This document shows, one piece after another, positions 530 to 64,000 of a stretch of 64,000 nucleotides of DNA (within the stretch, counting starts at the first letter, position 1; every line of letters begins with the position of its first letter). A program made the position numbers and the translations under genes. The notes under the pieces are model-generated. The model had not been told where the DNA came from, did no database searches, and saw nothing but the letters and a program-made list of their open reading frames with translations. The stretch lies in contig OZ245033.1 in the NCBI GenBank assembly GCA_965224025.1, positions 1,024,001-1,088,000 of the forward strand. The letters are read 5' to 3'. The DNA comes from Candidatus Multivorans sp. GTDB taxonomy: Bacteria; Acidobacteriota; Thermoanaerobaculia; Multivoradales; Multivoraceae.

Positions 530-703
530 ATGACGCGCTTGGCACCAGGATGGCGTCGGAGAAGTGCGCGGACGCCTCTTCGCGGCGCCCGGCCCGTCGT
601 CGTCGCCCGCGTCCTGTCGCGGCCGATCGTCGACTTCGCCGGTGCAGCCGGCCTCCTGCTACTGGTTCTGATTCTGGTTCTTGCCGTCCAGGGGGCTAAC
701 TAG
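530..703 (+). CDS. Branched-chain amino acid attenuator leader peptide (start uncertain)
   Basis: ORF ends in LLLLVLILVLAV including CTA/GTT/ATT/CTT codons atypical for this GC-rich DNA; CAGGGGGCT just before the stop is complementary to the 3' arm-pairing AGCCCCC of the downstream terminator. Confidence 0.8.
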   Translation: MTRLAPGWRRRSARTPLRGARPVVVARVLSRPIVDFAGAAGLLLLVLILVLAVQGAN

Positions 704-51387: not shown

Positions 51388-53991
51388 TCAGAACGAAACG
51401 GTGACCGTCATCGAGACCGACCGCGGCGGTCCGAGCCAGGCCGCGTTCTCGGTGATGGCGGCGAGATAGGCCTCGTCGAGCACGTTGTTCGCCACCAGGG
51501 AGAACTCCGTCTGCCGGAGCAAGTCGCTCAACGCCTCGCCCGAGAAGCTGATGTAGGCGTCCACCAGCCAATAGGCCTCGGTCGACCAGTCGGACGCCAG
51601 GCTGACGCGCCGCGGCGCCGTGTACTTGGCGCTGACCCCCGCGCTGAGAGGACCGGACCGGTCTAGCGAAACGACCCATAGACGGTCCGGCACGCCGGTG
51701 ACGTCGGCCCCCGCGACGATGTTCTGGCTCGCGTCGACGAGTGGATCTCCGCTGCCGATGTACTCCGAGTCGTTGAGCGTGTAGGCGGTGTAGAGCGACA
51801 TCTGGTGCGGCAGCGGCACCGTGGCGGCGAGTTCGATGCCGGTGGTCTCGATACCGCCCGCGTTGAAGTAGGCGCCGCCCCCCGGGATCAGGTAGTTGGG
51901 ACCGGCCGACGTCTGCGGACCGAGGTAGAAGATTCGGTTCTCGAAGTCGATCGTGTACCAGGTGGCGCTCAGGGCGATCCGTTCCCCCGAATACTGCATG
52001 CCGAGATCGATGTTCGAAGCGGACTCCGGCTCGAGCGCGTCGAGACTGCGTCCGGGCACCTCGAGCAGGTTGGCGCTGATCGCCTTGAAGTTCTCGGCGT
52101 AACCGACAAACAGGTCCAGGCCCTCGACCGGCGTCTCGTAGGTGACGCCGCCCGAGAGGAGGGCGCTCGAATCGGAATCGACCGTCAAGTCCGGGTCGAC
52201 ATGGAACAGGTCCTCGCGCGACACGTCGATCAGGTACTGCTTGACGCCCCCGCTCAAGGTAAACCGTCCGGCATAGATCGTCTCCTCCACGTACCACTTC
52301 AGGACATCCTGCGGGAAGTCCCACTCGTACTGGTGCCAGTAGGGATTCTCGTTCCACCGGAAGCTGATCGTTGGATCGAGGATTTGGTGCCAGTCCCGGC
52401 CAAGATCCCGCCGCGAGTCCTCGTACCAGATGCCGGCCCGGAGCTTGCTGCCGGCGGCGCCGAACGTGGTAAGCCACTCCTCGTCGAGCGTGACGCCGAG
52501 GCGGTCCTTTCCGTAGTGACTGTGGCGGTACGACTGCACCGCGGTGGCGCCCGGATGGCAAGCCGGATCGACCTCCGGGCCACCGGCGCCGTAGTAGTTG
52601 AAGATGAAGGAGGACGTGCAGCCGGGCGTCGGTCCGACGGCGCCTCCGTTCCGGCCCACGAAGCGGATCAGCCCGCGCTGGGCGCCGCCTCGCACCGGCG
52701 CCCCGCCCATCAGCTCGGATTCGGGTCCACCGTTGTCGTCGGTGAGATCGACGATGTAGGGGGGCAGCCAGTCGCCGCGGCCCCGGTGTCGATGGAAATA
52801 GGCGCCCAGTCTCAGCGCCAGCGCGTCGCTGAGCTTCCAGTCCGCCTTCAGGTAGCCGAACGTGTTGTTCCGCCGGGTCTGCCAGCCGGGCCGATAGAAC
52901 TGGTTGAGGTACGGCACTCCCGGCCAGTCGCCGGTCAACCGATCCCACCGCGGATTGGCCAGGAAGTCGCCCTCGCTGTAGAGCCGCTGGTAGACGTCTT
53001 CGTGGATGCTGTCGTACGAGAAGTAGCCGGTGAGATTCAGAGGCCCGTGCGACGAGATCAGCTTGGCGGCCACGTGCTCGCGCTCGTTCTGTGCCGAACC
53101 CTCCACCCAGTCGGTCGCTTCCTGGCGCACAATGGCGACCCAGGCGCGGGTCTGACCGCCGAACAGAGGCCCGGTGTCAGCCCGCATGAAGAAGCGTTGG
53201 CCGCCGTACTCACCCATCGTGGTCGAGGCGGTATAGGTCCGCTCCGCCGCCGGATCGTCGGTCTGGTAGTCGAACGTGCCGCCCAGCGCCTCGACCGAGC
53301 GCGAGGCGATGTCGGCCGTCCCCTGGGACACTTCGACTCCGCCGAGGTTCATCGGATCGATGAACCGGTTTGCCTTGGCGCCGCTCCAGTAGTCCGACGT
53401 GCCGTTCGGGAAGCCGTCGATCGTGGTGCCGATCTGCGCCTCGTTGATGGTCACTTGAAAGCCGCGCATGGCGACGTTGGCCGACCAGTCGTCGAAGCCG
53501 TACGAGTCCCCCTCCTGGACGGAGACTCCCGGCAGGTTGTCCACCACTGAGGTGATGTTCGTGATGTTCGACTGTTGCCGCATCATCGGTTGGGAGACGA
53601 TGTTCCTCGCGAAGGTCCGGGGCTCCTCGGCCACGACCGTGACCGTTTCGAGTAGCCTCGCGACCTGCAGAACGATCCGGACGTTCTCGGTGGCGCCCGT
53701 TGCAACGGAAACCGAAGTCTCCGTCGTCTCGAAGCCCGGCAGAAACGCCGTGACGAGATAGTCGCCGGCCGGCAGACCGGCGCTGGCGTAGGAACCGTCG
53801 GCGTCGGTCACGCGTTCCTGGCGCACGCCTGGGCCGGCCACCGTCACCATTACGCCGGGCAGGGGACTGCCGTTCGCGTCGACGACGACGCCTTCGATTG
53901 TTCCTGTTATCTGGACCGCGGCCGTTGTGGTGGCCGACAGCAGCACGGCGGCGATGGCGAGTCGTCCTCGCCAGAGGCATGGGGCATCCAT
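51388..53991 (-). CDS. TonB-dependent receptor with N-terminal carboxypeptidase-regulatory-like domain
   Basis: Signal peptide, TGTIEGVVVD..PLPGV, ETVTV TonB-box-like, plug NLPGV..MRG, NNVLDEAY..PRS, terminal F; GGAGGT RBS. Confidence 0.92.
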   Translation of the reverse strand: MDAPCLWRGRLAIAAVLLSATTTAAVQITGTIEGVVVDANGSPLPGVMVTVAGPGVRQERVTDADGSYASAGLPAGDYLVTAFLPGFETTETSVSVATGATENVRIVLQVARLLETVTVVAEEPRTFARNIVSQPMMRQQSNITNITSVVDNLPGVSVQEGDSYGFDDWSANVAMRGFQVTINEAQIGTTIDGFPNGTSDYWSGAKANRFIDPMNLGGVEVSQGTADIASRSVEALGGTFDYQTDDPAAERTYTASTTMGEYGGQRFFMRADTGPLFGGQTRAWVAIVRQEATDWVEGSAQNEREHVAAKLISSHGPLNLTGYFSYDSIHEDVYQRLYSEGDFLANPRWDRLTGDWPGVPYLNQFYRPGWQTRRNNTFGYLKADWKLSDALALRLGAYFHRHRGRGDWLPPYIVDLTDDNGGPESELMGGAPVRGGAQRGLIRFVGRNGGAVGPTPGCTSSFIFNYYGAGGPEVDPACHPGATAVQSYRHSHYGKDRLGVTLDEEWLTTFGAAGSKLRAGIWYEDSRRDLGRDWHQILDPTISFRWNENPYWHQYEWDFPQDVLKWYVEETIYAGRFTLSGGVKQYLIDVSREDLFHVDPDLTVDSDSSALLSGGVTYETPVEGLDLFVGYAENFKAISANLLEVPGRSLDALEPESASNIDLGMQYSGERIALSATWYTIDFENRIFYLGPQTSAGPNYLIPGGGAYFNAGGIETTGIELAATVPLPHQMSLYTAYTLNDSEYIGSGDPLVDASQNIVAGADVTGVPDRLWVVSLDRSGPLSAGVSAKYTAPRRVSLASDWSTEAYWLVDAYISFSGEALSDLLRQTEFSLVANNVLDEAYLAAITENAAWLGPPRSVSMTVTVSF

Positions 53992-54051
53992 TGGGGCAGC
54001 ACCTCCCGAGAAGAAAAGAACCCGATCAGGGGTGAAGGACTGGCCGAAATT

Positions 54052-54399
54052 TGGTGGAGGCGGTGGGAATCGAACCCACGTCCGCGAGACTCGGCGCGAG
54101 GGATCTACGTGCGTAGCCTTCACTCGATTGGTCGCTGCCGGCTTGGGTAGAAGGCCACCACGGCCGGCGGTCTAGCTCCGAAGTGATCCGGTCTGAGTTC
54201 GGAGCAGCGCTCAGACGTTCGATCCACTTTGAGTGTCGCTCCTGACGGCGCCGTGAATCAAGGCTCCGGCAGGACCGTGGAGGTTTCTAAGCCGCCAGTG
54301 CCAATTCGTCGTTGGCGAGTATCAAGAAACCGGTTTACGAGTCGGACTCGGCACGCAACCCCCGAACCGCATGATCTCCCGTCGAAGCCATGCGCCCCC
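54052..54399 (-). ncRNA. ssrA: tmRNA copy 1
   Basis: 5' GGGGGCGCATGGCTTCGAC, tag ANDELALAA* (54287-54316), 3' GGTTCGATTCCCACCGCCTCCACCA. Confidence 0.96.
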
Positions 54400-54410
54400 A
54401 GGGACCGTGG

Positions 54411-54416
54411 ATTCTA
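54411..54416 (-). promoter_or_regulatory. -10 box of ssrA copy 1
   Basis: TAGAAT 11 nt upstream of the mature 5' end; identical position in copy 2. Confidence 0.6.
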
Positions 54417-54524
54417 CACCAGACGGCTGCGCCCTGTTGGCAGAGGGCAACGGTTGCCAGCGAGCCGGCTGCCACTGCCGCCAGGACGCCTCGCCAGCGC
54501 CGGGTAGGCAATGCCGAAATCGCG

Positions 54525-57269
54525 CTAGAAGGTCATCCCGAGCTTCAGCCGGAACTCACGCGGAACGAGGTAGCCGCCGGCACTCGAACTCGGCCTTCCG
54601 TTGGCGAGATTCACCGACACCTGATCCTGCTCGTCGGTCACGTTCGCCACCTCGAAGCCGACTTTCCCCGCGAAGGCACCGCGAATCGGAAAGTCCCAGG
54701 CAGCGGCGACCGCCAGCGTCATCGTGTCGGGGAGCTTCTGCGCATCGCGGGGCTCGACGTAGGCCCAGGTGTTGATCCGGGCGCCCGACACGGGATGCAG
54801 CACGGCCGTGCTCGGGCGTAGCCCCCACCGCCGGCCCGCCTGTGCATTGACGATGGCACTCGCGACCACACTCTGATTGCCGATGTCCCAGCGCTTGACC
54901 CCAATGACGTGGGCTACGTACTCGCGATCGGTGTTCAGCCGGCCGTCGAGATTGCGGGCGGTGGGGTTGAGAACCCCAGTCCCAAGCTGGACTCCGCCGA
55001 GGCCCTCGAACTCGTTGCCCTGAGCGTTGAGATCATCTTCGTTGCCCTCGAGCTTGCCGACCGTCAAGTCGGTGCGCAGCGACCAACCCCCGCGGAAGTA
55101 GCGGTTGGCCGCCAGCATCAGCCCCCGGTACTCGCGGAACAGCTCGGGTCGGTTGACGATCTGTCTGAAGATCTGGCCGTCCGCGTCATATTGGTCGTTC
55201 GCCTGGTAGAGGTCTTTCGACTCGTTCCACATCAGCCGAGAGGTGAACACCCAGTTGGGGGCGAACTGCCAGTCCACACCCATCGAGACCTCGTCCTTGA
55301 ACCAGGGCTCGACTGACTGGATCTCGTTGTCGTTGGCCGCGATGAAGCTCCGTTGGAAGATGTCGTATCTCTGGGTTGCCGGGTTCCATCCGAACTGGTC
55401 GAAGGTATTCAGGCCGTTGGTGCCGCGGGTGAAGTGACGGAAGGCGAGGTCCAGCGGGAAGATCCGAACGGCGCGCCCGGCGGTCCCCCGAACCAGGAGC
55501 TTGCCGTCGGCGTTGACGTCGTAAACCGCCGAGAACCGCGGCGCGGGCTCCCGGTAGTCGTTGACCTGCTCGCCGATGTTGTTGGTTACGGTCTGATCGT
55601 CGAGGCGGAGCCCCGCGGTGACCACCCAGTGATCTCCGATGCTGATGCGGTCCTGGGCGTGGATCGCACGCATCGGGCTCTCGTATCTCGAAATGCCGTC
55701 TCCCCCCGGCGACACGTAGACCCGCTTGTTCACGGGTGTCGTGAAGCCGCTCGGCGAATTCAGGTCGTAGCCGCGACCGCGGTAGTCGGTGACGAGGTCG
55801 GCTTTCGCGTTGTAGAACATCGTGTGCTCATCGATCCCGAAGCGCCACTCGTGGTTGCCCTTGAAGAGTGACGCCGCGAGGTTGATCTGCTCGCGAGGAA
55901 AGTCGTTGAAGCCATCGCCGTTGGCCGCCGCGTTACCGTTGTATCGAACCCTGTCGTTGAGGTCCTGGTAGCGGAAGTTGGTGGCGAGCGGGCTATCCGG
56001 CGGAGCGTTGGGGTCGATTTCCCGACGATGCGTAACCCCGCGCGTCAGTTTGTCCGTGCTGTCCGCGACCTTCACCTCGAGGAAGAGGCTCCGGGTGGCG
56101 CTGAAGTTCCAGGCGGCGCTGGCGAGCTTGCTGTCGATCTCTGTCACTGAGAGGGAGTAGATATCCCCGCTGTTTCCCGCGCCCTCGTAGTCGCTCGGTG
56201 CCGTGAGGCCGGTGAACGAGAAATGATGCCGGTCTCCAGCCTGAACGTTGAACTTGCCGACGACCGGCTCGCCCCTCTGGGCAGTCTCGACAACGAAACC
56301 AGTGTTGGTCTGACTGTAGTAGCCGTCGAAGCTCTCACCGGTGGCGACGAAGAACCACGCCCTGTCGCGCCAGATGGGGCCTCCGAGTGAGGCCTCCCAG
56401 GAGTTGAGCTGCTTGTCCGGGCGAGGAAGGTCCGGAGCGACTTGGGAGACAGCGCGCCAGGTGGGGTTCTGACCGACGAAGAGCGCATCGCCGTGAAAGT
56501 CGTTCGTGCCCGACTTGATGACGGTATTGACGATCCCACTGGTGGAGCGGCCGTACTCGGCGCCGTTTCCTGCGACCTGCACGCTGATCGCGGCGGTGGA
56601 GGTGGTCGGCAGGTTGAAGCGGAACTCACCGCCGCGCCGGGTCTGGCTGATGTCGACGCCCTCGATGAACGAGCCCACTTCGTAGGTCAGGCCCCCTGGC
56701 GTGGCCATGAAGCTGCTGTCGTTGGCGGTGTTGCGTGAAGTGACCCCGGGAAGCTGATGCACAGCCGACCCGTACGCGCGACTGGAGAACGCCACTTCCT
56801 CGGTGACCTCAGAGCTCAACGTCGCCGTCAAAGTGGTCTCGAACTTGCTGATCAAGGGCGCCTCGGCGGTCACCGTGATCGCCTCGGCGGTCTCGGAGCG
56901 CAGCTCGAGGTCGATGCCGCGGCGCTCTCCGACCTGCAACTGCGTCGCTACTCTGGCCTGGCCCAGGCCCTCGAGTTCGCCGTGAACCTCGTAGGCGTCC
57001 GGCGGTAGAACGGCGAAGCGGTAGTTCCCGTCGGCATCGGTGATTGCCGTCTTGGTTCCCTGAGGGCCGGTCAGGGTCACCGTGACGCCGGGCAGGGCCC
57101 CACCCTGAGCGTCGAGAGCGCGGCCCTCGATCGTCCCAGTCTGCGGCCCGTCGGCCGACAGGGACATGGGAGCGCAGAGAACGAGGGTTGTGGCGAGAAG
57201 AAGGCGCGGTCGACTAAGTGTTTTCGTGAGCTCAGCTCCCCCAGGGTTTGGGCCGCTACGAACGGCCAA
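54525..57269 (-). CDS. TonB-dependent receptor (Oar-like) with N-terminal carboxypeptidase-regulatory-like domain
   Basis: QTGTIEG..ALPGVTV, EAITVTAEAPL, AEYGRSTSG..IKSGTNDFHG, LGGPIWRDRAWFF, PREFRLKLGMTF. Confidence 0.92.
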   Translation of the reverse strand: MAVRSGPNPGGAELTKTLSRPRLLLATTLVLCAPMSLSADGPQTGTIEGRALDAQGGALPGVTVTLTGPQGTKTAITDADGNYRFAVLPPDAYEVHGELEGLGQARVATQLQVGERRGIDLELRSETAEAITVTAEAPLISKFETTLTATLSSEVTEEVAFSSRAYGSAVHQLPGVTSRNTANDSSFMATPGGLTYEVGSFIEGVDISQTRRGGEFRFNLPTTSTAAISVQVAGNGAEYGRSTSGIVNTVIKSGTNDFHGDALFVGQNPTWRAVSQVAPDLPRPDKQLNSWEASLGGPIWRDRAWFFVATGESFDGYYSQTNTGFVVETAQRGEPVVGKFNVQAGDRHHFSFTGLTAPSDYEGAGNSGDIYSLSVTEIDSKLASAAWNFSATRSLFLEVKVADSTDKLTRGVTHRREIDPNAPPDSPLATNFRYQDLNDRVRYNGNAAANGDGFNDFPREQINLAASLFKGNHEWRFGIDEHTMFYNAKADLVTDYRGRGYDLNSPSGFTTPVNKRVYVSPGGDGISRYESPMRAIHAQDRISIGDHWVVTAGLRLDDQTVTNNIGEQVNDYREPAPRFSAVYDVNADGKLLVRGTAGRAVRIFPLDLAFRHFTRGTNGLNTFDQFGWNPATQRYDIFQRSFIAANDNEIQSVEPWFKDEVSMGVDWQFAPNWVFTSRLMWNESKDLYQANDQYDADGQIFRQIVNRPELFREYRGLMLAANRYFRGGWSLRTDLTVGKLEGNEDDLNAQGNEFEGLGGVQLGTGVLNPTARNLDGRLNTDREYVAHVIGVKRWDIGNQSVVASAIVNAQAGRRWGLRPSTAVLHPVSGARINTWAYVEPRDAQKLPDTMTLAVAAAWDFPIRGAFAGKVGFEVANVTDEQDQVSVNLANGRPSSSAGGYLVPREFRLKLGMTF

Positions 57270-57482: not shown

Positions 57483-57830
57483 TGGTGGAGGCGGTGGGAA
57501 TCGAACCCACGTCCGCGAGACTCGGCGCGAGGGACCTACGTGCGTAGCCTTCACTCGATCAGTCGCCGCCGGCTTGGGTAGAAGGCCACCACGGCCAGCG
57601 GTCTAGCCCCGAAGTGATCCGGCCTGAGTTCAGAGCCGCGCTCAGGCGTTCGGTCCACTTTGAGTGTCGCTCCTGACGGCGCCGCGAATCAAGGCTCCGG
57701 CAGGACCGTGACGGCTTCTAAGCCGCCAGTGCCAATTCGTCGTTGGCGAGTGTCAAAATTCCGGTTTACGAGTCGGACTCGGCACGCAACCCCCGAACCG
57801 CATGATCTCCCGTCGAAGCCATGCGCCCCC
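57483..57830 (-). ncRNA. ssrA: tmRNA copy 2
   Basis: Same ends, same length (348 nt) and same tag ANDELALAA* (57718-57747) as copy 1, with scattered substitutions. Confidence 0.96.
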
Positions 57831-57841
57831 AGGGACCGGGG

Positions 57842-57847
57842 ATTCTA
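57842..57847 (-). promoter_or_regulatory. -10 box of ssrA copy 2
   Basis: TAGAAT 11 nt upstream of the mature 5' end. Confidence 0.6.
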
Positions 57848-57891
57848 CACCAGTCTCGGCGTTGCTCGGGGGTTGCGCGTCGGTGACACCC

Positions 57892-58068
57892 GCCTGACCC
57901 GGGGTTGAAGGAGGGGGTCCCAGGGGACGCTCGCGCTTTCGTGGTGAGTGGAAGATCGGCGCTCGCTTGGGTCGCCTGCGCTCCGGGAAGTCGTCGGTTC
58001 AGGGAAGGTCGTCAGCAGTAGCTTGGCTCCAGCCCCCTAGGACCCCCTCCTTCAACCCCGGGCCAGGC
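57892..58068. repeat. ~170-bp structured repeat family, copy B
   Basis: 35-bp terminal IR with two mismatches (57892-57926 / 58034-58068); homologous to 38408-38577. Confidence 0.82.
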
Positions 58069-58472
58069 TGGACGTCGCCGGGCAGCGGGATACGCCCGCC
58101 TCCATCAGTGAGAGCCACGATCGCGGCCAGTGGATCTGTCGGGTCACGCAGAGATGAGGAGTGCCCCCAAACGCCACCCCGGCCCTTGTTTGAGAGGCCT
58201 GCCGGTGTTCGTCGCACAGGACTCGGTCCCACGACGAGGCCGGTGTGTTCATTGACGGACATGTGATTCACACTCCGGAAACGAGTAGTCTCGACGAAGC
58301 CCAGCGCGCATGTGGCCCCGCTTGGTTCCTTGGTGTCAAGTGATCGGGCGGCAACTCAACGTGCTCGCCGCCAGAATCTGGGGCATACTCCCCGGCATGG
58401 GAATGCCTCCTACGTTGTTGATCGAGGCTGCGAGCCCTATTCGGCCTGCTGCTCTAGAAAGGTGAAGCTCTA

Positions 58473-59648
58473 GTGCGGACTCACGACGCAGGAGACGTTG
58501 CAACAGCCTTAGGGGGCAAGTTGGCTGCCCGGTCACGACACGTATGCCTTTTCCTAGGCGCTGGTGCCAGCAAAGCCTGTGGCTTGCCGGACGTGGAGGA
58601 GTTGGAGGAGACTGTGCTGGACAGCCTTGCAGCTCCGGATGAGACCGTGCTGCGGAGGCTGCTAGAGGGCCGAACTCTCGAGCAGGTTCTAAGTCGCCTC
58701 CGCCGAATTGCGGGACTCGTCTCCGGTGAAGCTGCGGTTGATGGTCTAAGAGCAAAGGACGCTGAGAATCTAGATAACGCGGTGTGCCGGGCGATTGTGG
58801 ACGCGCTGAGTGTGGATAGCGCTTCACCCACTGCAGCCCACTATCTTGCTGTCTGGGCGGCGCGAGCAAACTACCGCGTTCCTGTGGAGCTCTTTACGGT
58901 GAACTACGATCTGCTCCTTGAGAGTGCGTTGGAGCATGTGGGGGCACCCTACTTCGATGGGTTCGTCGGGGCGCTTGAGGCTCGGTTCCATACCGAGTTA
59001 GTGGAGGCAACAGAGGGCAGGGATGACGAGACGGTGCCTCGGTTCTTTGTTCGGCTTTGGAAGCTGCACGGCTCTGTCAACTGGGTTCGAAGGGAGGAAG
59101 GAGGGATCGTTAGACTTGGACAGGTCGCCCCTAACACGCGACCGGCGGCGATCTATCCGTCGGATACAAAGTACGAGGAGTCTCGACGTGTCCCGTTCCT
59201 TGTCCTTCAGGACCAGTTCAGGAGGGCCCTTCATCGGCCGGAAACACTTGTGTTGATTAGCGGCTATTCCTTTGGGGACGAACACCTTAACGAGCACATT
59301 TACGGCGCGGCGACACGCCGAGCTCGGTCGGAGTTCATCGTGTTCTGCTTTGACGAGATTCCCGAGCCCCTAGCGGATCGCGCCATGTTGACGCCGAACC
59401 TCCAAGTCTTAGCCGCCCAAGAGGCGATTATCGGTGGCGTCAGGGGGAATTGGCAGGAACCGAAAACTCCTGTGACGGATGTCTGGCGCGATGATGCCTT
59501 CACGCTCGTCGACTTCAACGAACTCGCGAGACACTTGGCGCGCAGCACGGCCCCACAGTACGAAGACGGACGGGCCTTGGAGGAGTTGCTAGAGCGGCTC
59601 GGCGTCGGTGGCGGATCTGCGGTTGAGGGCGGAGAGAAGGGTGGTTGA
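58473..59648 (+). CDS. SIR2-family protein (anti-phage NADase type)
   Basis: FLGAGAS..GLP, FTVNYDLLLE, KLHGSVNW, GYSFGDEHLN. Confidence 0.92.
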   Translation: MRTHDAGDVATALGGKLAARSRHVCLFLGAGASKACGLPDVEELEETVLDSLAAPDETVLRRLLEGRTLEQVLSRLRRIAGLVSGEAAVDGLRAKDAENLDNAVCRAIVDALSVDSASPTAAHYLAVWAARANYRVPVELFTVNYDLLLESALEHVGAPYFDGFVGALEARFHTELVEATEGRDDETVPRFFVRLWKLHGSVNWVRREEGGIVRLGQVAPNTRPAAIYPSDTKYEESRRVPFLVLQDQFRRALHRPETLVLISGYSFGDEHLNEHIYGAATRRARSEFIVFCFDEIPEPLADRAMLTPNLQVLAAQEAIIGGVRGNWQEPKTPVTDVWRDDAFTLVDFNELARHLARSTAPQYEDGRALEELLERLGVGGGSAVEGGEKGG

Positions 59649-61403
59649 GCAGGATCCGACACGAATCGGGCAAGTCCTTCGGGTACGGGGCGCTGCCGTC
59701 ACGGTCGCGCTCGATCCCGACTTGGCCGGCACCTCGCCGATCTTCCGAGGGCGCCTTCACGCTGTAGGACAGATCGGATCGTTAGTTCGAGTTCCGCAGG
59801 GAGCTGTGGATCTCGTTGCCACCGTGGTCTTCGTCGGTATCACTGAAGGACAGAGCGACGTTGCGCCGACATCGGCACTCCAGCCGGAGGAACGGTACCT
59901 GCAGGTACAGTTACTCGGACAGATTGATCGCGGAACAGGGACGTTTCAGCGTGGTGTGGGGTCGTATCCTGGACTTGACGATCCAGTGCACTTCGCAACT
60001 CCCGAAGAACTGAAGGCGGTCTTTCCTGGCCCCGGGGATGAGAACCTACCTCTAGGACGTCTCGCTGCGGCTGAGGAGACTCCCGTGTGCGTGGAGGCAA
60101 AGAGCTTTGTTGTCCGTCACGCGGCGGTCGTTGGGTCGACGGGCTCGGGCAAGACCAGCGCCGTTGCGGCCACGCTCCAAGGCTTCGTCAAGGGAGGTTG
60201 GGATGCTGCGAACATCGTTGTGGTGGACCCACACGGCGAGTACTCCCGAGCCATGGACGGGTACGCGTCGGTCAGGAGCGTCCTAGGAAGTGGCGCAAAC
60301 CGCCTGCGTGTTCCGTTTTGGGCGATGGCGGCGAACGATATTGTCCGCGTCTTTTGTGGGTCTTGGGCGAGGGGACGTTCTACAAACGTTTCGTCGAACT
60401 CGTTACGCAGCACCGGCGGGAGTTCGTTAGGGCCGCCAACTGGCTTTCATTGGAGCCCTCGGCGGTTACAGCCGATACACCAGTGCCGTTCGATATTCGA
60501 GAAGTGTGGTATCAGCTTGATGCTGAGAACAACATGACTCTGAAAGAAAAGGGCAACCCAGACACCGTGTGTAAGAAGAGCGAAGGCAACGCTTCAGAAC
60601 TGCATCCCGCGACCTTTACACCCTACGGTGCTGGCGGTAGGTCGCCCCACCAGGGCCCGTACTACGGAGTCCATGGCACCTTACCGAACCAACTGCGGCT
60701 CGGCCTGCTGGACCCTCAACTGCGGGCCTTTCTGTCGCCGGAGGGTGAGACGGACGGTACAGACCCGATGATCGAGGTCGTGCAGAGTTGGCTCGGCGAT
60801 GAACGCCCAGTATCTGTGCTCGACTTTAGCGGAGTGCCAGCGATTGCGGCGGACCTTGCGATAGGCGTCGTACTGAACTTGATCTTTGAGATCTCTCTCC
60901 GTTGCGACTTCGGCGGGCCTGGCATCGGGCGGCCCTGTCCCGTCTTGATAGTCCTTGAGGAAGCGCATCGCTACCTTGGAAGCGAGGCCGGCGCTCTGAC
61001 ACGTCAATCCGTGAACAGGATTGCTCGGGAGGGTCGAAAGTACGGCGTCGGCATCATGCTTGTCTCGCAACGTCCGACGGAGCTCCCAAGTACTGCGCTG
61101 GCGCAATGCGGAACGTTGGTTGCACTCAGGCTTTCGAACTCGGGGGACCAGGGGGCGATTCGAGCGGCTCTGCCTGACGAGATTGGGGGCTTGGCTGCCG
61201 CCCTGCCTTCACTGCGTACGGGGGAGGCGATTGTGAGCGGGGAGTCCATGGTATTGCCGGCTCGCATTCTTTTTGATATGCCTGAGCCTAGGCCGAAGGC
61301 AGATGATCCAAGCCTAGAGGCTTGGCGCGGCAAGCCTGCGGTCCCGGACGTTGCGCCAGCTTTGATGGCTTGGCGTGGAACACATGAGGTTGCAGATGAT
61401 TGA
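59641..61403 (+). CDS. herA: HerA-family ATPase/helicase with a frameshift near 60358 (possibly a sequencing error)
   Basis: N-terminal barrel (GQIGSLV), GSTGSGKT, DPHGEY; second frame LEEAH, RIAREGRKYG, SQRPTEL. Confidence 0.9.
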
Positions 61404-61614
61404 TTGGAAACCTGTGAGTAACTCTACGCGGATCGTCGCGGAAGCGTACGATCCGACGGCGGAGACGATTTACGTGCGCTTCCCTAGTGGAGTTGAGTGG
61501 TGGTACTCGGCATGTCCACCGGAGGTCTGGGGGGCTTTCACTGCTCCAGGGCAGTCGCGCGGCGCGTACATCCATGAGGTACTGAATCACAAGCCCCACG
61601 GGCGTCACGGCTAG
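61396..61614 (+). CDS. KTSC-domain protein
   Basis: STRIVAEAYDPTAETIYVRFPSGVEWWYSACPPEVW..F....SRGAYI matches the KTSC pattern S..I....YD.....L.V.F..G..Y.Y..VP........S.G.Y; overlaps herA stop. Confidence 0.82.
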   Translation: MIDWKPVSNSTRIVAEAYDPTAETIYVRFPSGVEWWYSACPPEVWGAFTAPGQSRGAYIHEVLNHKPHGRHG

Positions 61615-62006
61615 CAAAGTGAGGCTAGGCATGCCTCCGTCCGTTGTGCCGGTGTTGTATGGAGGTGTAGGACGTTAGACGCCTAACCCGAACGAGCTTG
61701 GCAAGTACGCCGGGAAGAACCCTGTAACAGCGCCGGATCCGCGGCGACGTATGGCGGACCTCGGAGGCCGCGCGGGTACCTACGGAGGGGAACTCGGCTC
61801 TCGCTTCGGTCGGCCCCGTTCCCGGATGGGGCTGGTCTGGATCACGGTGACGACTGTCGCTGCCGACAGCGTTGGGGACTCTCCCCTAGGGATTTCTGCC
61901 GGCGAGCTTGCGGCAGGGACGCTCTCGCGCGCGGAACAGGTGGCCGCCACGGGTGATCGTCAGAGGCGGCTCGGATGACGTCCTGCAGGAACTGATCCCG
62001 GCTCGC

Positions 62007-64000
62007 TTATGGCCCACCGGTCCGCGGGCGCGTGGACTTTCCGCCATGCACCGTCGGCTCGGCGCACCACTGCCTGCGGAGCAGGTCGAGGGGTTCCATC
62101 GCGTCATCGGGCAGTCCGAGGAGATCCACGAGCACAGCGCGGTCAAGTGCCTGACGGGTTTCGTCGCGGTAGGCCTCGTTGGCGGGGAGAAACTCCCGGT
62201 CGCAGAAGTCGGCGAAGAGGTGTACGGAGGCGGCGTGTTGGGCGTCGGTCAGGCGGCGCGGGTCGAGGACGGGGAGGTCCGGGAGCGTCGAGAGGGTGAG
62301 GATGGCGCGGCCCTGTTGCTGGCGGGCGCCGAGCCACCAGAAGGACATTAGGCCGAGCGTGGTGTTGGACCAGAGGACGACAGGCGTTTCCCAGCGCTCG
62401 TCGTGGAGCTTGAAGTTAGGCCAGGCTCGGCCGCCGAGCGTCTTTCCGGGCGTCAGGCAGGCGGCGAGCGGCTGGGAGTTGAGACGGAAGTCCAGGTTGA
62501 AGTGCAGCTTAGTGGCGTGGCGGCGCCATGCTCTCACCGCACGCTCGCCGCAGTCGGGGCGTGGTTCCGCCCGGCAGTCCGGCTGCACGGTCAAGCGGCT
62601 TTCCCGTGATGCGTCGTGGCCCCACAGCGTCGGGTACGTGGGTACTGCCCCGTGGATGGTCGGGAGGATGTCGAATGGACCCCTGGGCGGCGTGCGTTCA
62701 GGATCGCCGTTGATGTCTCGGTGGAGTAATCCCCGACTGCCGATCTCGGAGAGCGGGACCACCGGGACCATAGCTTCCTCGTTCCGCCGGGGGAGCTTCA
62801 GCCGTCCCTTCGGCAAGGCCAGCATGGTCTGGGCGAGCCCGGCTTCCAGGATGCCCCAGGCGCCCCCGTTCTGAAGCTCCGTGCGGACGAAGACGCCGGC
62901 TTCATCTGCGTCCGTCAGAGGGATTCGTCCGGTCGATAGCATCGTTCGCTTGGCGGCGACCTCGTCGATGCGACGAGCGACGGAGACCGCTTCGAGGATC
63001 GAGCGCGGCCGTTGCCTGAGGTTCGTGAACAGTGTGTCGGACCTCCCGCTGCCGGTCTTTCTGGCCACGACGAGGACTTCTGCCATGCCTGTGTCGGCAG
63101 AGAAAGCGCGTCCCGACTGACCCGTATCGGCTATGGAGACGACCGTGAGTCCTTGGTAGCGGCCCGCGAACAGGTCGCGAGCGTTCCGCCAAGAACCGCC
63201 CTGCACGAAGGCTGCCGGCAGGACGAATGCCGCGACCCCGCCGGGCCGCAGCTTGGCGTGTGCCAGATCAACGAAGTTGGATGCCAAGCCTGCGTTGCCG
63301 TGGCCGGCTGGTTCGGCGAGCGCCCTCCTGTACTCGGCGAGCCGCCTTGACATCACCGCCTGTTCGCTCCTGCTCGTCGCGAAGCCCGCGAACGAGGGCA
63401 CGGGCACGGTCGTGCTCTCGTGGTTCGTCGGCCTGGTGAAAGGAGGGTTCATGATGACCAGGTCGAAGCCGCGGTCCGGCGCATCGACGTCGCGAAGCTG
63501 CTCCCGATCCCCGCCGGCGCCGCGGACCTGGGCCGCTCCCGTGCCGAACAACGGCAGCACGGGGTCGGACGACAGCAAGTCGAGTGAGCCGATGGCATGG
63601 GCTCGACCGCTGCCTTCGGGTTGTGCACCGTAGGGCATGGTGTAGATGCGGGTGTCATCGAAGGTCGCGTTGGGATGCACGCTCGACACGATGGACGCGG
63701 TGAGGTGCGTTGCCGCAGGCATGATGTCGGCGCCGAGCAGGACGCGCTCCATCATCGCGGCGTGCAGGGCCCGGTCGTCCCCGCCGGCGCGGCGATGCCG
63801 TGCGGCGACGCGATGGTAGGCGGCGGACAGCAGAGCACCGGTCCCGCAGGCGAAGTCGGCGATCCGCAGGCGGAGCACGTCGTCGGCGCTTGCCCAGTCG
63901 ACCTCGAGACGGTCGACCGCCAGTTCGGCTAGCAAAGTGGCGCTCGAGGGGAGGGTGTAAAAGGTGGCGAGGAACTTTCGGTCGGCGATCAGCCGCTGGA
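62007..64000 (-). CDS. N6-adenine DNA methyltransferase, probably a fused type IIG-like restriction-modification protein (5' end outside window)
   Basis: FYT (motif X), DFACGTG (motif I), IMNPPF (motif IV), long C-terminal recognition region; frame open to window end. Confidence 0.88.
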   Translation of the reverse strand, partial: QRLIADRKFLATFYTLPSSATLLAELAVDRLEVDWASADDVLRLRIADFACGTGALLSAAYHRVAARHRRAGGDDRALHAAMMERVLLGADIMPAATHLTASIVSSVHPNATFDDTRIYTMPYGAQPEGSGRAHAIGSLDLLSSDPVLPLFGTGAAQVRGAGGDREQLRDVDAPDRGFDLVIMNPPFTRPTNHESTTVPVPSFAGFATSRSEQAVMSRRLAEYRRALAEPAGHGNAGLASNFVDLAHAKLRPGGVAAFVLPAAFVQGGSWRNARDLFAGRYQGLTVVSIADTGQSGRAFSADTGMAEVLVVARKTGSGRSDTLFTNLRQRPRSILEAVSVARRIDEVAAKRTMLSTGRIPLTDADEAGVFVRTELQNGGAWGILEAGLAQTMLALPKGRLKLPRRNEEAMVPVVPLSEIGSRGLLHRDINGDPERTPPRGPFDILPTIHGAVPTYPTLWGHDASRESRLTVQPDCRAEPRPDCGERAVRAWRRHATKLHFNLDFRLNSQPLAACLTPGKTLGGRAWPNFKLHDERWETPVVLWSNTTLGLMSFWWLGARQQQGRAILTLSTLPDLPVLDPRRLTDAQHAASVHLFADFCDREFLPANEAYRDETRQALDRAVLVDLLGLPDDAMEPLDLLRRQWCAEPTVHGGKSTRPRTGGP

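What the first reader, a model, noticed from the sequence alone, without database searches (positions are those of the whole stretch)
58473..61614. SIR2-HerA defence operon with a third, overlapping KTSC gene
Seen: sir2, herA and a 72-aa KTSC gene overlap consecutively (59641-59648 and 61396-61403), share visibly lower-GC codon usage than the flanks, and sit next to an adenine MTase/RM gene. Known: SIR2-HerA is a described two-gene NAD+-depleting anti-phage system; KTSC is a small domain associated with nucleic-acid binding. Inference: KTSC may be a dedicated sensor, regulator or antitoxin-like subunit defining a three-component variant that I do not recognise as described.
Basis: partly seen in the sequence, partly recalled or inferred. 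Interest (0 to 1): 0.72.

Follow-up and report, generated by a model that had tools for sequence, protein, structure and literature searches.

The report
SIR2-HerA defence operon, detached KTSC subunit
This is a known type of NAD-depleting anti-phage system (SIR2-HerA) whose small third gene is a piece of HerA encoded separately, and in this strain the HerA gene itself is broken by a one-base deletion.

Summary
sir2 (58473-59648), herA (59641-61403) and a 72-aa KTSC gene (61396-61614) overlap by 8 nt at each junction and sit in a lower-GC patch.

The KTSC gene is a true, conserved third cistron. It lies directly after herA in 79 of 80 related genome loci; the one miss ends inside herA. In a KTSC-centred metagenome scan herA abuts KTSC in 78 of 80 loci. 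No other flanking gene is shared by more than 5 of 79 loci.

It is not a new kind of regulator. A profile of 77 KTSC genes and the predicted fold (pLDDT 94) both match the C-terminal domain of the solved Paenibacillus sp. 453MF HerA, part of its "arm domain" (profile: residues 632-688; fold: 613-696, Z 10-10.9). That protein is this system's closest solved relative. The third gene is therefore that HerA domain encoded separately.

Here herA carries a 1-nt deletion (GGG 60365-60367, GGGG in relatives). Public contigs show it is a real strain allele, and sister strains have the intact form.

PADLOC has no KTSC model, and I found no paper describing the triad. This scan reached the same reading on at least seven other genomes. 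It is a modest variant of a known system.

The parts
58473..59648 (+). sir2: 391-aa SIR2-family NADase effector, intact ORF with a GTG start
   Evidence: ORF. PF13289 scores 46.7 bits and PADLOC SIR2 PDLC04093 scores 349 bits. Closest solved chain is 8w9l_A, E 1.1e-44. N144, D146 and H199 align with N163, D165 and H212 of that chain and are invariant in 26 homologs.
59641..61403 (+). herA: HerA-type ATPase gene, broken by one frameshift. The 5' part is in frame with 59641. The 3' part is in the -1 frame and ends at TGA 61401-61403.
   Evidence: Two ORFs. DUF87 scores 74.9 bits on the 5' part and HerA_C 33.8 bits on the 3' part. PADLOC HerA PDLC04105 matches profile positions 7-254 and 263-572 of 576. 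Intact homologs are 555-599 aa. The closest solved chain to the L002 homolog is 8wiv_A, E 1.1e-99.
60365..60367 (+). Frameshift site: a run of three G where relatives have four (1-nt deletion)
   Evidence: DNA alignment with L001. Public contigs carry 'G put in behind 60364' in X1, X8 and one allele of X4/X5. A second X4/X5 contig is identical to the window.
61396..61614 (+). KTSC gene: 72 aa, its ATG overlapping the herA stop (ATGATTGA). It is the detached counterpart of the C-terminal KTSC domain of Paenibacillus HerA.
   Evidence: PF13619 scores 27.2 bits against a cut-off of 25. It has 258 homologs, the 120 listed being 70-99% identical. The AF2 model has pLDDT 94.3. VIA-align gives Z 12.3 to 4rgi, 11.8 to 7x8c and 10.0-10.9 to HerA chains 8wld/8wiv/8wof/8wj3 at residues 613..696. 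The profile hits 8wiv_A residues 632-688 at E 0.0022.

Best explanation
The locus is a SIR2-HerA abortive-infection system of the Paenibacillus sp. 453MF type. In such systems a HerA hexameric ATPase assembles with SIR2, and on infection the complex depletes NAD+.

In this clade the KTSC module is encoded as its own 71-75-aa gene, translationally coupled to herA. In the solved Paenibacillus protein the same module is the C-terminal globular end of HerA's 'arm domain'.

Shown here:
- The KTSC gene is homologous in sequence and fold to that HerA domain.
- The three genes are inherited together as a closed unit across many phyla.
- HerA-KTSC linkage recurs in fused and split forms, and with a non-SIR2 partner.

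Inferred:
- The free KTSC protein binds the HerA ring as a stoichiometric subunit, taking the place of the fused domain at the ring periphery.
- There it helps set the resting conformation of the hexamer and/or contacts nucleic acid.

In this particular strain herA has a 1-nt deletion, so the system is most likely inactive. Co-occurring and related strains keep the intact allele.
For: Family:
- PADLOC SIR2 scores 349 bits, and HerA scores 147.7 and 257.4 bits on the two halves.
- The closest solved chains are the Paenibacillus SIR2 8w9l_A (E 1.1e-44) and HerA 8wiv_A (E 1.1e-99 for the intact L002 homolog; query 6-580 aligns with chain 11-601 of 696).
- The catalytic N/D/H residues of SIR2 align.

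Third gene:
- KTSC lies directly after herA in 79 of 80 SIR2-selected genome loci. The one miss, L019, ends inside herA.
- The herA stop and KTSC start overlap by 1, 4 or 8 nt in 61 of 79 loci.
- In a KTSC-selected metagenome scan herA abuts KTSC in 78 of 80 loci. SIR2 lies upstream in 54 of the 54 loci with at least 2300 nt of upstream DNA.
- Of 1683 flank ORFs, the largest shared cluster is present in only 5 of 79 loci.
- KTSC and HerA pairwise distances correlate (Spearman 0.49; 0 of 999 permutations reach it; 66 loci).

Detached domain:
- The profile of 77 KTSC genes hits 8wiv_A residues 632-688 (E 0.0022, 20.7 bits) with the canonical KTSC motif.
- Foldseek ranks HerA chains of 8wld, 8wiv, 8wof and 8wj3 directly after the two KTSC crystal structures (TMq 0.77-0.83). 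Everything below them has E above 0.5.
- VIA-align gives Z 10.0-10.9, rmsd 1.5-1.6 A and 67 aligned residues over chain 613..696. The next unrelated chain has Z 4.0.

Other fused and split forms:
- P0308 is a HerA fragment with KTSC at residues 424-480 (82.8 bits; hhalign probability 95.7%).
- L181 holds a 519-aa HerA ORF with KTSC at 457-514.
- L182 holds a 645-aa protein of unknown family, then HerA (581 aa), then KTSC (70 aa).

Frameshift:
- (see parts).
- According to the paper, SIR2 alone has minimal activity and complex formation triggers the activities (passage).
Against: - No binding of free KTSC to HerA was shown here.
- The paper attributes the arm's contacts 'especially' to helices alpha19-20 and their linker. 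These helices lie before the KTSC part, so what the KTSC globule itself touches is not known from the text I saw. I could not inspect coordinates.
- Fused forms are rare. A 'longer' search with KTSC found none (weak evidence). Only 1 of the 24 long HerA representatives that I picked from the best 150 has a Pfam KTSC hit. The split form is therefore the common state, and the direction of change (fission or fusion) is open.
- The sequence hit to 8wiv_A alone is marginal (E 0.0022). The claim rests on it together with the fold match and the position.
- KTSC is not uniformly the best-conserved gene. All-against-all identity is 62.7% for KTSC and 68.3% for HerA. Measured against the window's own proteins it is 68.4% for KTSC, 64-66% for HerA and 57.2% for SIR2.
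- Runs X4/X5 may come from the window's own source sample, so they do not give independent support for the deletion allele.
Confidence: 0.75

Rival explanations
1. KTSC is an independent regulatory or sensing subunit: a dissociable gate, antitoxin-like restraint or nucleic-acid sensor that controls when HerA and SIR2 fire. On this reading the split clade works differently from the fused one.
For: - The gene is separate in almost all relatives, which would allow independent dosage or release.
- KTSC domains are described as nucleic-acid binding in PMC9503650 ('DNA-binding') and PMC7824862 ('RNA-binding').
- HerA-KTSC also occurs with a non-SIR2 partner (L182), as expected of a sensor core with exchangeable effectors.
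- Recent work on E. coli type III Sir2-HerA shows multilayered gating by DNA ends and ATP (PMC13434337, abstract).
Against: - The same domain is covalently fused in a system that is reported to defend (PMC11472057 abstract), so free dissociation is not required.
- Most junctions overlap (61 of 79), which fits translational coupling and co-produced subunits. This is an inference.
- There is no experimental datum on KTSC in any system.
Confidence: 0.17
2. The herA frameshift is an assembly or sequencing error, and the system is intact in this organism.
For: The site is a short homopolymer (GGG against GGGG). Some related records also show broken herA frames: in L015, L026 and L044 the two halves lie in different frames, and L031 has an internal stop.
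Against: A 166-nt public contig identical to the window, without the extra G, is present in two runs at depth 35.8 and 43.8. It stands beside a second allele that has the G plus 9 other differences. Those two runs are one sample and may be the window's own source.
Confidence: 0.12
3. The G-run difference is a reversible on/off switch (phase variation) of the defence system within one strain.
For: Both lengths of the G run occur in one sample. The closest relative has herA independently switched off by an insertion sequence, which suggests pressure to silence herA.
Against: The two alleles differ at 9 further positions within 166 nt, so they belong to different strains. A run of 3-4 G is short for slipped-strand switching (general knowledge).
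Confidence: 0.05
4. KTSC is an unrelated neighbouring gene.
For: 12 of 16 PF13619 matches in 301 genomes of the phylum have no HerA within 1.5 kb, so KTSC proteins do exist in other contexts.
Against: The KTSC gene follows herA in 79 of 80 and 78 of 80 loci across many phyla and one archaeal genus. Start and stop codons overlap, and fused forms exist.
Confidence: 0.01

Closest known systems
SIR2-HerA anti-phage system of Paenibacillus sp. 453MF (PDB 8W9L, 8WIV, 8WLD and others; Liao et al., Nucleic Acids Res 2024, PMC11472057)
   Same: It holds the closest solved SIR2 (E 1.1e-44) and HerA (E 1.1e-99). The SIR2 catalytic N/D/H residues align. The domain set is the same, including a KTSC fold.
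   Different: There KTSC is the C-terminal part of a 696-aa HerA. Here HerA ends at about 588 aa and KTSC is a separate 72-aa gene. The passages I saw describe the region only as a 'unique arm domain', and the word KTSC occurs 0 times in the paper. In the window herA is also frameshifted.
E. coli SIR2-HerA / Nezha (PDB 8J4U, 8SU9 and others) and E. coli Sir2-HerA types I-III (PMC13434337)
   Same: They share the two-enzyme logic of a SIR2 NADase with a HerA ATPase and abortive infection (PMC13434337 abstract and section 26; bioRxiv 10.1101/2021.12.14.472415 passages).
   Different: They are much more distant: SIR2 E 2.2e-12 and HerA E 1.4e-26. The text I read mentions no third gene. A DNA-level search of E. 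coli genomes with a split-type locus found nothing.
Free-standing KTSC proteins (PDB 4RGI, Yersinia pestis YPO2434; 7X8C, Methanolobus vulcani; Pfam PF13619)
   Same: The fold is the same: Z 12.3 and 11.8, rmsd 1.5-1.6 A. The profile E-values are 8e-7 and 9e-8.
   Different: The window's protein scores only 27.2 bits on the Pfam model. It belongs to a tight subfamily found with SIR2-HerA in both scans made here.
HerA + KTSC + endoDNase variant, mentioned as unpublished observations in Iyer et al., Viruses 2022 (PMC9503650, section 3.7.1)
   Same: It couples a HerA-like ATPase with a KTSC gene in a conflict system (passage). L182 may be such a case: an unknown 645-aa protein, HerA and KTSC.
   Different: In that remark the KTSC variant has a nuclease 'in lieu of the sirtuin'. 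Here the sirtuin and KTSC occur together.

Membership tests
SIR2-HerA anti-phage system (PADLOC SIR2-HerA) | Adjacent, co-oriented SIR2-domain and HerA-family genes | tested here: met
   SIR2 PDLC04093 scores 349 bits, and HerA PDLC04105 scores 147.7 and 257.4 bits. The two genes overlap by 8 nt.
SIR2-HerA anti-phage system (PADLOC SIR2-HerA) | SIR2 catalytic residues (N163, D165 and H212 of the Paenibacillus enzyme, as named in PMC11472057) | tested here: met
   N144, D146 and H199 align with them and are invariant in 26 homologs.
SIR2-HerA anti-phage system (PADLOC SIR2-HerA) | Intact HerA ATPase ORF with Walker A and Walker B motifs | tested here: not met
   The motifs GSTGSGKT and VLEEAH can be read, but they lie in two different frames because of a 1-nt deletion at 60365-60367. 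The ORF is intact in most relatives: 75 of 79 by the open-frame test, one of which (L031) later showed an internal stop. The window therefore holds a member of the family with a broken gene.
SIR2-HerA anti-phage system (PADLOC SIR2-HerA) | Phage defence with NAD+ depletion | not testable with these tools
   This needs phage challenge and NAD+ assays.
KTSC domain (Pfam PF13619) | Score over the curated Pfam cut-off | tested here: met
   27.2 bits against a cut-off of 25.
KTSC domain (Pfam PF13619) | KTSC fold | tested here: met
   The model has pLDDT 94.3. VIA-align gives Z 12.3 to 4rgi and 11.8 to 7x8c.
Paenibacillus-type HerA with C-terminal KTSC-bearing arm domain | KTSC module covalently fused to the HerA C-terminus | tested here: not met
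   HerA ends at TGA 61401-61403 and KTSC starts at its own ATG at 61396 in another frame. The arrangement is likewise split in 79 of 80 loci.
Paenibacillus-type HerA with C-terminal KTSC-bearing arm domain | KTSC module present in the system and homologous to residues 613-696 of the solved HerA | tested here: met
Paenibacillus-type HerA with C-terminal KTSC-bearing arm domain | KTSC module physically attached to the HerA ring | not testable with these tools
   This needs a pull-down or a structure of a split-type complex.

The most novel reading that the evidence does not exclude
HerA-KTSC is a conserved sensing core with exchangeable effectors: SIR2 here, an unknown 645-aa protein in L182, and nucleases in the variant mentioned by Iyer et al. 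In the split clade the free KTSC protein would be a dissociable gate. Its binding to or release from the HerA ring, perhaps on meeting DNA ends or a phage protein, would license ATPase and NADase activity. That would make the three-gene form mechanistically distinct from the fused Paenibacillus form.
Probability: 0.18. Interest if true: 0.65.

Novelty: new variant of a known kind. Interest (0 to 1): 0.4.

Why it matters
- Defence-system catalogues list SIR2-HerA as a two-gene system. PADLOC v2.0.0 has no KTSC model: 0 of 77 KTSC proteins hit a HerA or SIR2-HerA model.
- In the clade around the one Paenibacillus system with solved structures, nearly every operon has three genes. Cloning only sir2 and herA from such loci would leave out a HerA domain.
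- The result gives a domain name and a family of free homologs to the distal part of the 'unique arm domain' of the solved HerA.
- It also gives a natural split version in which the role of that domain can be tested by simple gene deletion.
- Two independent knock-outs of herA occur in one narrow lineage: a 1-nt deletion here and an insertion sequence in L001. sir2 and KTSC stay intact in both. This hints that herA is where such systems are silenced.

Tried and rejected
- Complex prediction of HerA (L002, 588 aa, with alignment A5) and KTSC (alignment A4) gave score 0.00, which the tool reports as 'no answer'. It is neither evidence for nor against binding.
- A 'longer' protein search with KTSC for fused forms found none among 17 candidates. 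The tool itself calls this weak evidence.
- hhalign of the KTSC profile against the C-terminal extension of P0268 (684-aa HerA) gave probability 1.3% and E 0.039, which is inconclusive.
- 23 of the 24 long HerA representatives that I chose from the best 150 had no Pfam KTSC hit. The other 126 were not scanned.
- The promoter and terminator scans of 57800-62100 gave no more than chance (1 against 0.7 expected; 1 against 3.1 expected).
- blastn 'distant' of the Pseudomonas chlororaphis locus L018:3261-6392 against E. coli genomes gave no match. This is DNA-level only and does not show absence of distant relatives.
- The first attempt to scan metagenomes with the 77-sequence alignment failed because it had no sufficiently conserved stretch. 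A 19-sequence alignment worked, but it biases that scan towards close KTSC relatives.
- A fourth conserved gene was rejected. No flank cluster is present in more than 5 of 79 loci. The methyltransferase homolog flanks only 3 loci (L001, L003, L015).
- Programmed frameshifting in herA was rejected, because sister alleles and L001 read straight through with GGGG.
- Supplementary files of the papers were not opened. Gene tables there might mention KTSC.
Full report
**1. What is in the sequence**

One search lists three co-oriented ORFs.
- sir2 runs 58473-59648 (391 aa).
- herA lies in two frames, 59608/59641-60537 and 60087-61403.
- A small ORF ends at 61614. Its ATG at 61396 gives a 72-aa protein.

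The junctions read GTGGTTGA (59641-59648) and ATGATTGA (61396-61403).

GC content is 0.58-0.62 between 58250 and 61749. The flanks are at 0.62-0.70.

- Pfam gives SIR2_2 (46.7 bits), DUF87 (74.9 bits), HerA_C (33.8 bits) and KTSC (27.2 bits, cut-off 25).
- PADLOC gives SIR2 PDLC04093 at 349 bits.
- PADLOC HerA PDLC04105 matches both halves, at profile positions 7-254 and 263-572 of 576.
- PADLOC gives nothing for KTSC.

The minus-strand ORF from 62007 to beyond 63998 has an NPPF motif and only weak methyltransferase hits.

**2. The frameshift**

Aligned with the 96%-identical relative L001, the window has GGG at 60365-60367 where L001 has GGGG. L001 reads straight through that site.

Public contigs laid on 59800-60900 give the following picture.
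- Runs X1 and X8 come from two other studies. Their contigs differ from the window at 27 of 1101 letters and carry the extra G.
- Runs X4 and X5 are one sample and hold both forms.
- One X4/X5 form is a 166-nt contig identical to the window (depth 35.8 and 43.8).
- The other is a 167-nt contig with the G plus 9 other differences (depth 32.8 and 69.4).

The deletion is therefore a real allele of one strain, with the caveat that X4/X5 may be the window's own source sample. Sister strains have an intact herA. The linked differences argue against phase variation within one strain.

L001's own herA is cut by an insertion sequence at the site matching window 60557-60566. The element carries a 404-aa transposase ORF. 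Two close relatives thus lost herA independently while keeping sir2 and KTSC.

**3. Is KTSC part of the system?**

I built an alignment of 26 SIR2 homologs and scanned one genome per species. Of 249 pattern matches, 114 encode a relative, and the best 80 were kept. Their record titles span many groups:
- Binatia, Rhodothermales, and Alpha-, Beta- and Gammaproteobacteria;
- Acidobacteriota, Actinomycetota and Dehalococcoidia;
- Planctomycetes, Verrucomicrobiota and Eubacteriales;
- the archaeon Natrialba.

The results on these loci were as follows.
- tblastn with the window's proteins finds a KTSC homolog directly after herA in 79 of 80. The one miss, L019, ends inside herA.
- The herA stop and KTSC start overlap by 1, 4 or 8 nt in 61 of 79 loci, and KTSC is 71-75 aa long.
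- sir2 and herA overlap by 8 nt in 46 of 71 loci.
- Clustering 1683 flank ORFs (90 aa or longer, within 3.5 kb) shows no further conserved neighbour. The largest cluster is present in 5 of 79 loci.

The reciprocal scan started from KTSC. It used a 19-sequence alignment, so it is biased towards close relatives. Of 388 pattern matches in metagenome contigs, 127 were relatives and 80 were kept.
- herA abuts KTSC in 78 of 80 loci.
- SIR2 lies upstream in all 54 loci that have at least 2300 nt of upstream DNA.
- The two misses are L143, with no HerA hit in 723 nt upstream, and L161, with a degenerate HerA-like stretch.

RefSeq already annotates the three genes side by side on plasmids of Paraburkholderia aromaticivorans and Natrinema zhouii.

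Conservation is as follows.
- Identity to the window's proteins averages 57.2% for SIR2, 64-66% for HerA and 68.4% for KTSC over 69 loci.
- All-against-all identity is 62.7% for KTSC and 68.3% for HerA.
- KTSC and HerA pairwise distances correlate (Spearman 0.49; 0 of 999 permutations reach it; 66 loci). This shows co-inheritance, not interaction.

The system is patchy among relatives. SIR2 was found in 2 of 41 genomes searched, the window's own genome included.

**4. What KTSC is**

The closest solved structures are the Paenibacillus sp. 453MF SIR2 and HerA.
- That HerA has 696 residues.
- The intact 588-aa homolog from L002 aligns only to residues 11-601 of it.
[quoted passage not shown] It wraps the neighbouring RecA-like domain in trans and stabilises a split-spiral hexamer (PMC11472057, passages).

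Three lines of evidence place a KTSC domain in that arm.
- A profile of 77 KTSC genes (A3) hits the two KTSC crystal structures. It then hits 8wiv_A residues 632-688 (E 0.0022), with the canonical KTSC motif visible in the alignment.
- The AlphaFold model of the window's KTSC has pLDDT 94.3. In Foldseek it matches 7x8c and 4rgi, then HerA chains of 8wld, 8wiv, 8wof and 8wj3 (TMq 0.77-0.83). All other chains have E above 0.5.
- VIA-align gives Z 10.0-10.9, rmsd 1.5-1.6 A and 67 aligned residues over chain residues 613..696. The next unrelated chain has Z 4.0.

The third gene is therefore the separately encoded counterpart of the C-terminal globule of the solved HerA.

Further natural arrangements were found.
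- P0308 is a HerA fragment with a fused KTSC at 424-480 (82.8 bits; hhalign 95.7%).
- L181 holds a 519-aa HerA ORF with KTSC at 457-514.
- L182 holds a more distant HerA (581 aa) followed by a free KTSC (70 aa). A 645-aa protein without Pfam or PADLOC hits lies in front of them.

In 301 genomes of the window's phylum, PF13619 occurs in 15 genomes (16 matches). Four of the 16 matches have HerA within 1.5 kb. KTSC thus follows HerA rather than SIR2, and many KTSC proteins live in other contexts.

**5. Mechanism**

Known from the literature:
- SIR2-HerA systems defend by abortive infection with NAD+ loss (bioRxiv 10.1101/2021.12.14.472415, passages).
- In the Paenibacillus system SIR2 alone is nearly inactive, and complex formation with the HerA hexamer triggers NADase, nuclease, ATPase and helicase activities (PMC11472057, passage).

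The window's SIR2 keeps the catalytic N, D and H residues.

Inferred:
- Free KTSC docks on the HerA ring in place of the fused domain.
- There it contributes to the resting conformation or to nucleic-acid contact.

In this strain the truncated HerA should leave SIR2 unactivated.

**6. Comparison with what is in print**

- Only 3 papers in the library hold both 'KTSC' and 'HerA', and one of them is unrelated.
- The relevant remark is in PMC9503650. [quoted passage not shown]
- 'KTSC domain' occurs in 7 papers and 'PF13619' in 1. None of them concerns SIR2-HerA.
- The 2024 structure paper has 0 occurrences of KTSC.
- The 2026 classification of E. coli Sir2-HerA mentions no third gene in the text I read.
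- Supplements were not opened.

**7. Earlier notes of this scan**

After I had reached this reading, a word search of the scan's earlier notes showed 9 findings in at least 7 other genomes. The 8 shown (one has the cassette only as a neighbour) call KTSC the detached HerA tail or a conserved third partner, and seven name the Paenibacillus system as closest known. They agree with this report but are not independent evidence.

**8. Verdict**

The operon is real and KTSC is a real third cistron. It is best described as a SIR2-HerA system of the Paenibacillus type with a split HerA, which is a variant of a known kind. In this strain it is a recent pseudogene.

Noticed in passing
window 54052-54399 (-) and 57483-57830 (-): There are two full-length tmRNA genes with the same tag peptide ANDELALAA. 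They are 94.6% identical over 371 nt, and each lies upstream of a TonB-dependent-receptor-like ORF (51388-54123 and 54525-57269). The close relative L001 has only the copy next to sir2. The stretch 54010-54520 that holds the other copy is about 83 nt there.
   Followed up: partly
L001 8095-9371 (site matching window 60557-60566): In the 96%-identical relative, herA is interrupted by an insertion sequence with a 404-aa transposase ORF (L001 8114-9328, minus strand). About 10 nt are duplicated at the junction. This is a second, independent inactivation of herA in this lineage.
   Followed up: partly
window 62007-63998 (-): This is a methyltransferase-like ORF with an NPPF motif, cut off by the window end. 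Its Pfam hits are below their cut-offs, and PADLOC MTase_II scores 38.5 bits. A homolog also flanks the SIR2-HerA-KTSC cassette in L001, L003 and L015, that is 3 of 79 loci.
   Followed up: no
L182 2027-7346: The gene row is: a 645-aa protein with no Pfam or PADLOC hit, HerA (581 aa), KTSC (70 aa, 75.1 bits), and a 433-aa protein with no hit. It may be a HerA-KTSC system with an uncharacterised effector in place of SIR2.
   Followed up: partly
L082 6116-7093 (Natrinema zhouii plasmid): Two ADP-ribosylglycohydrolase-family ORFs are annotated directly after the archaeal SIR2-HerA-KTSC cassette. The first overlaps the KTSC gene. This is an intriguing neighbour for an NAD+/ADP-ribose-producing system.
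   Followed up: no
L080 7080-8746: About 1.6 kb lies between sir2 and herA in this Solirubrobacterales locus, presumably an insertion. I did not examine it.
   Followed up: no
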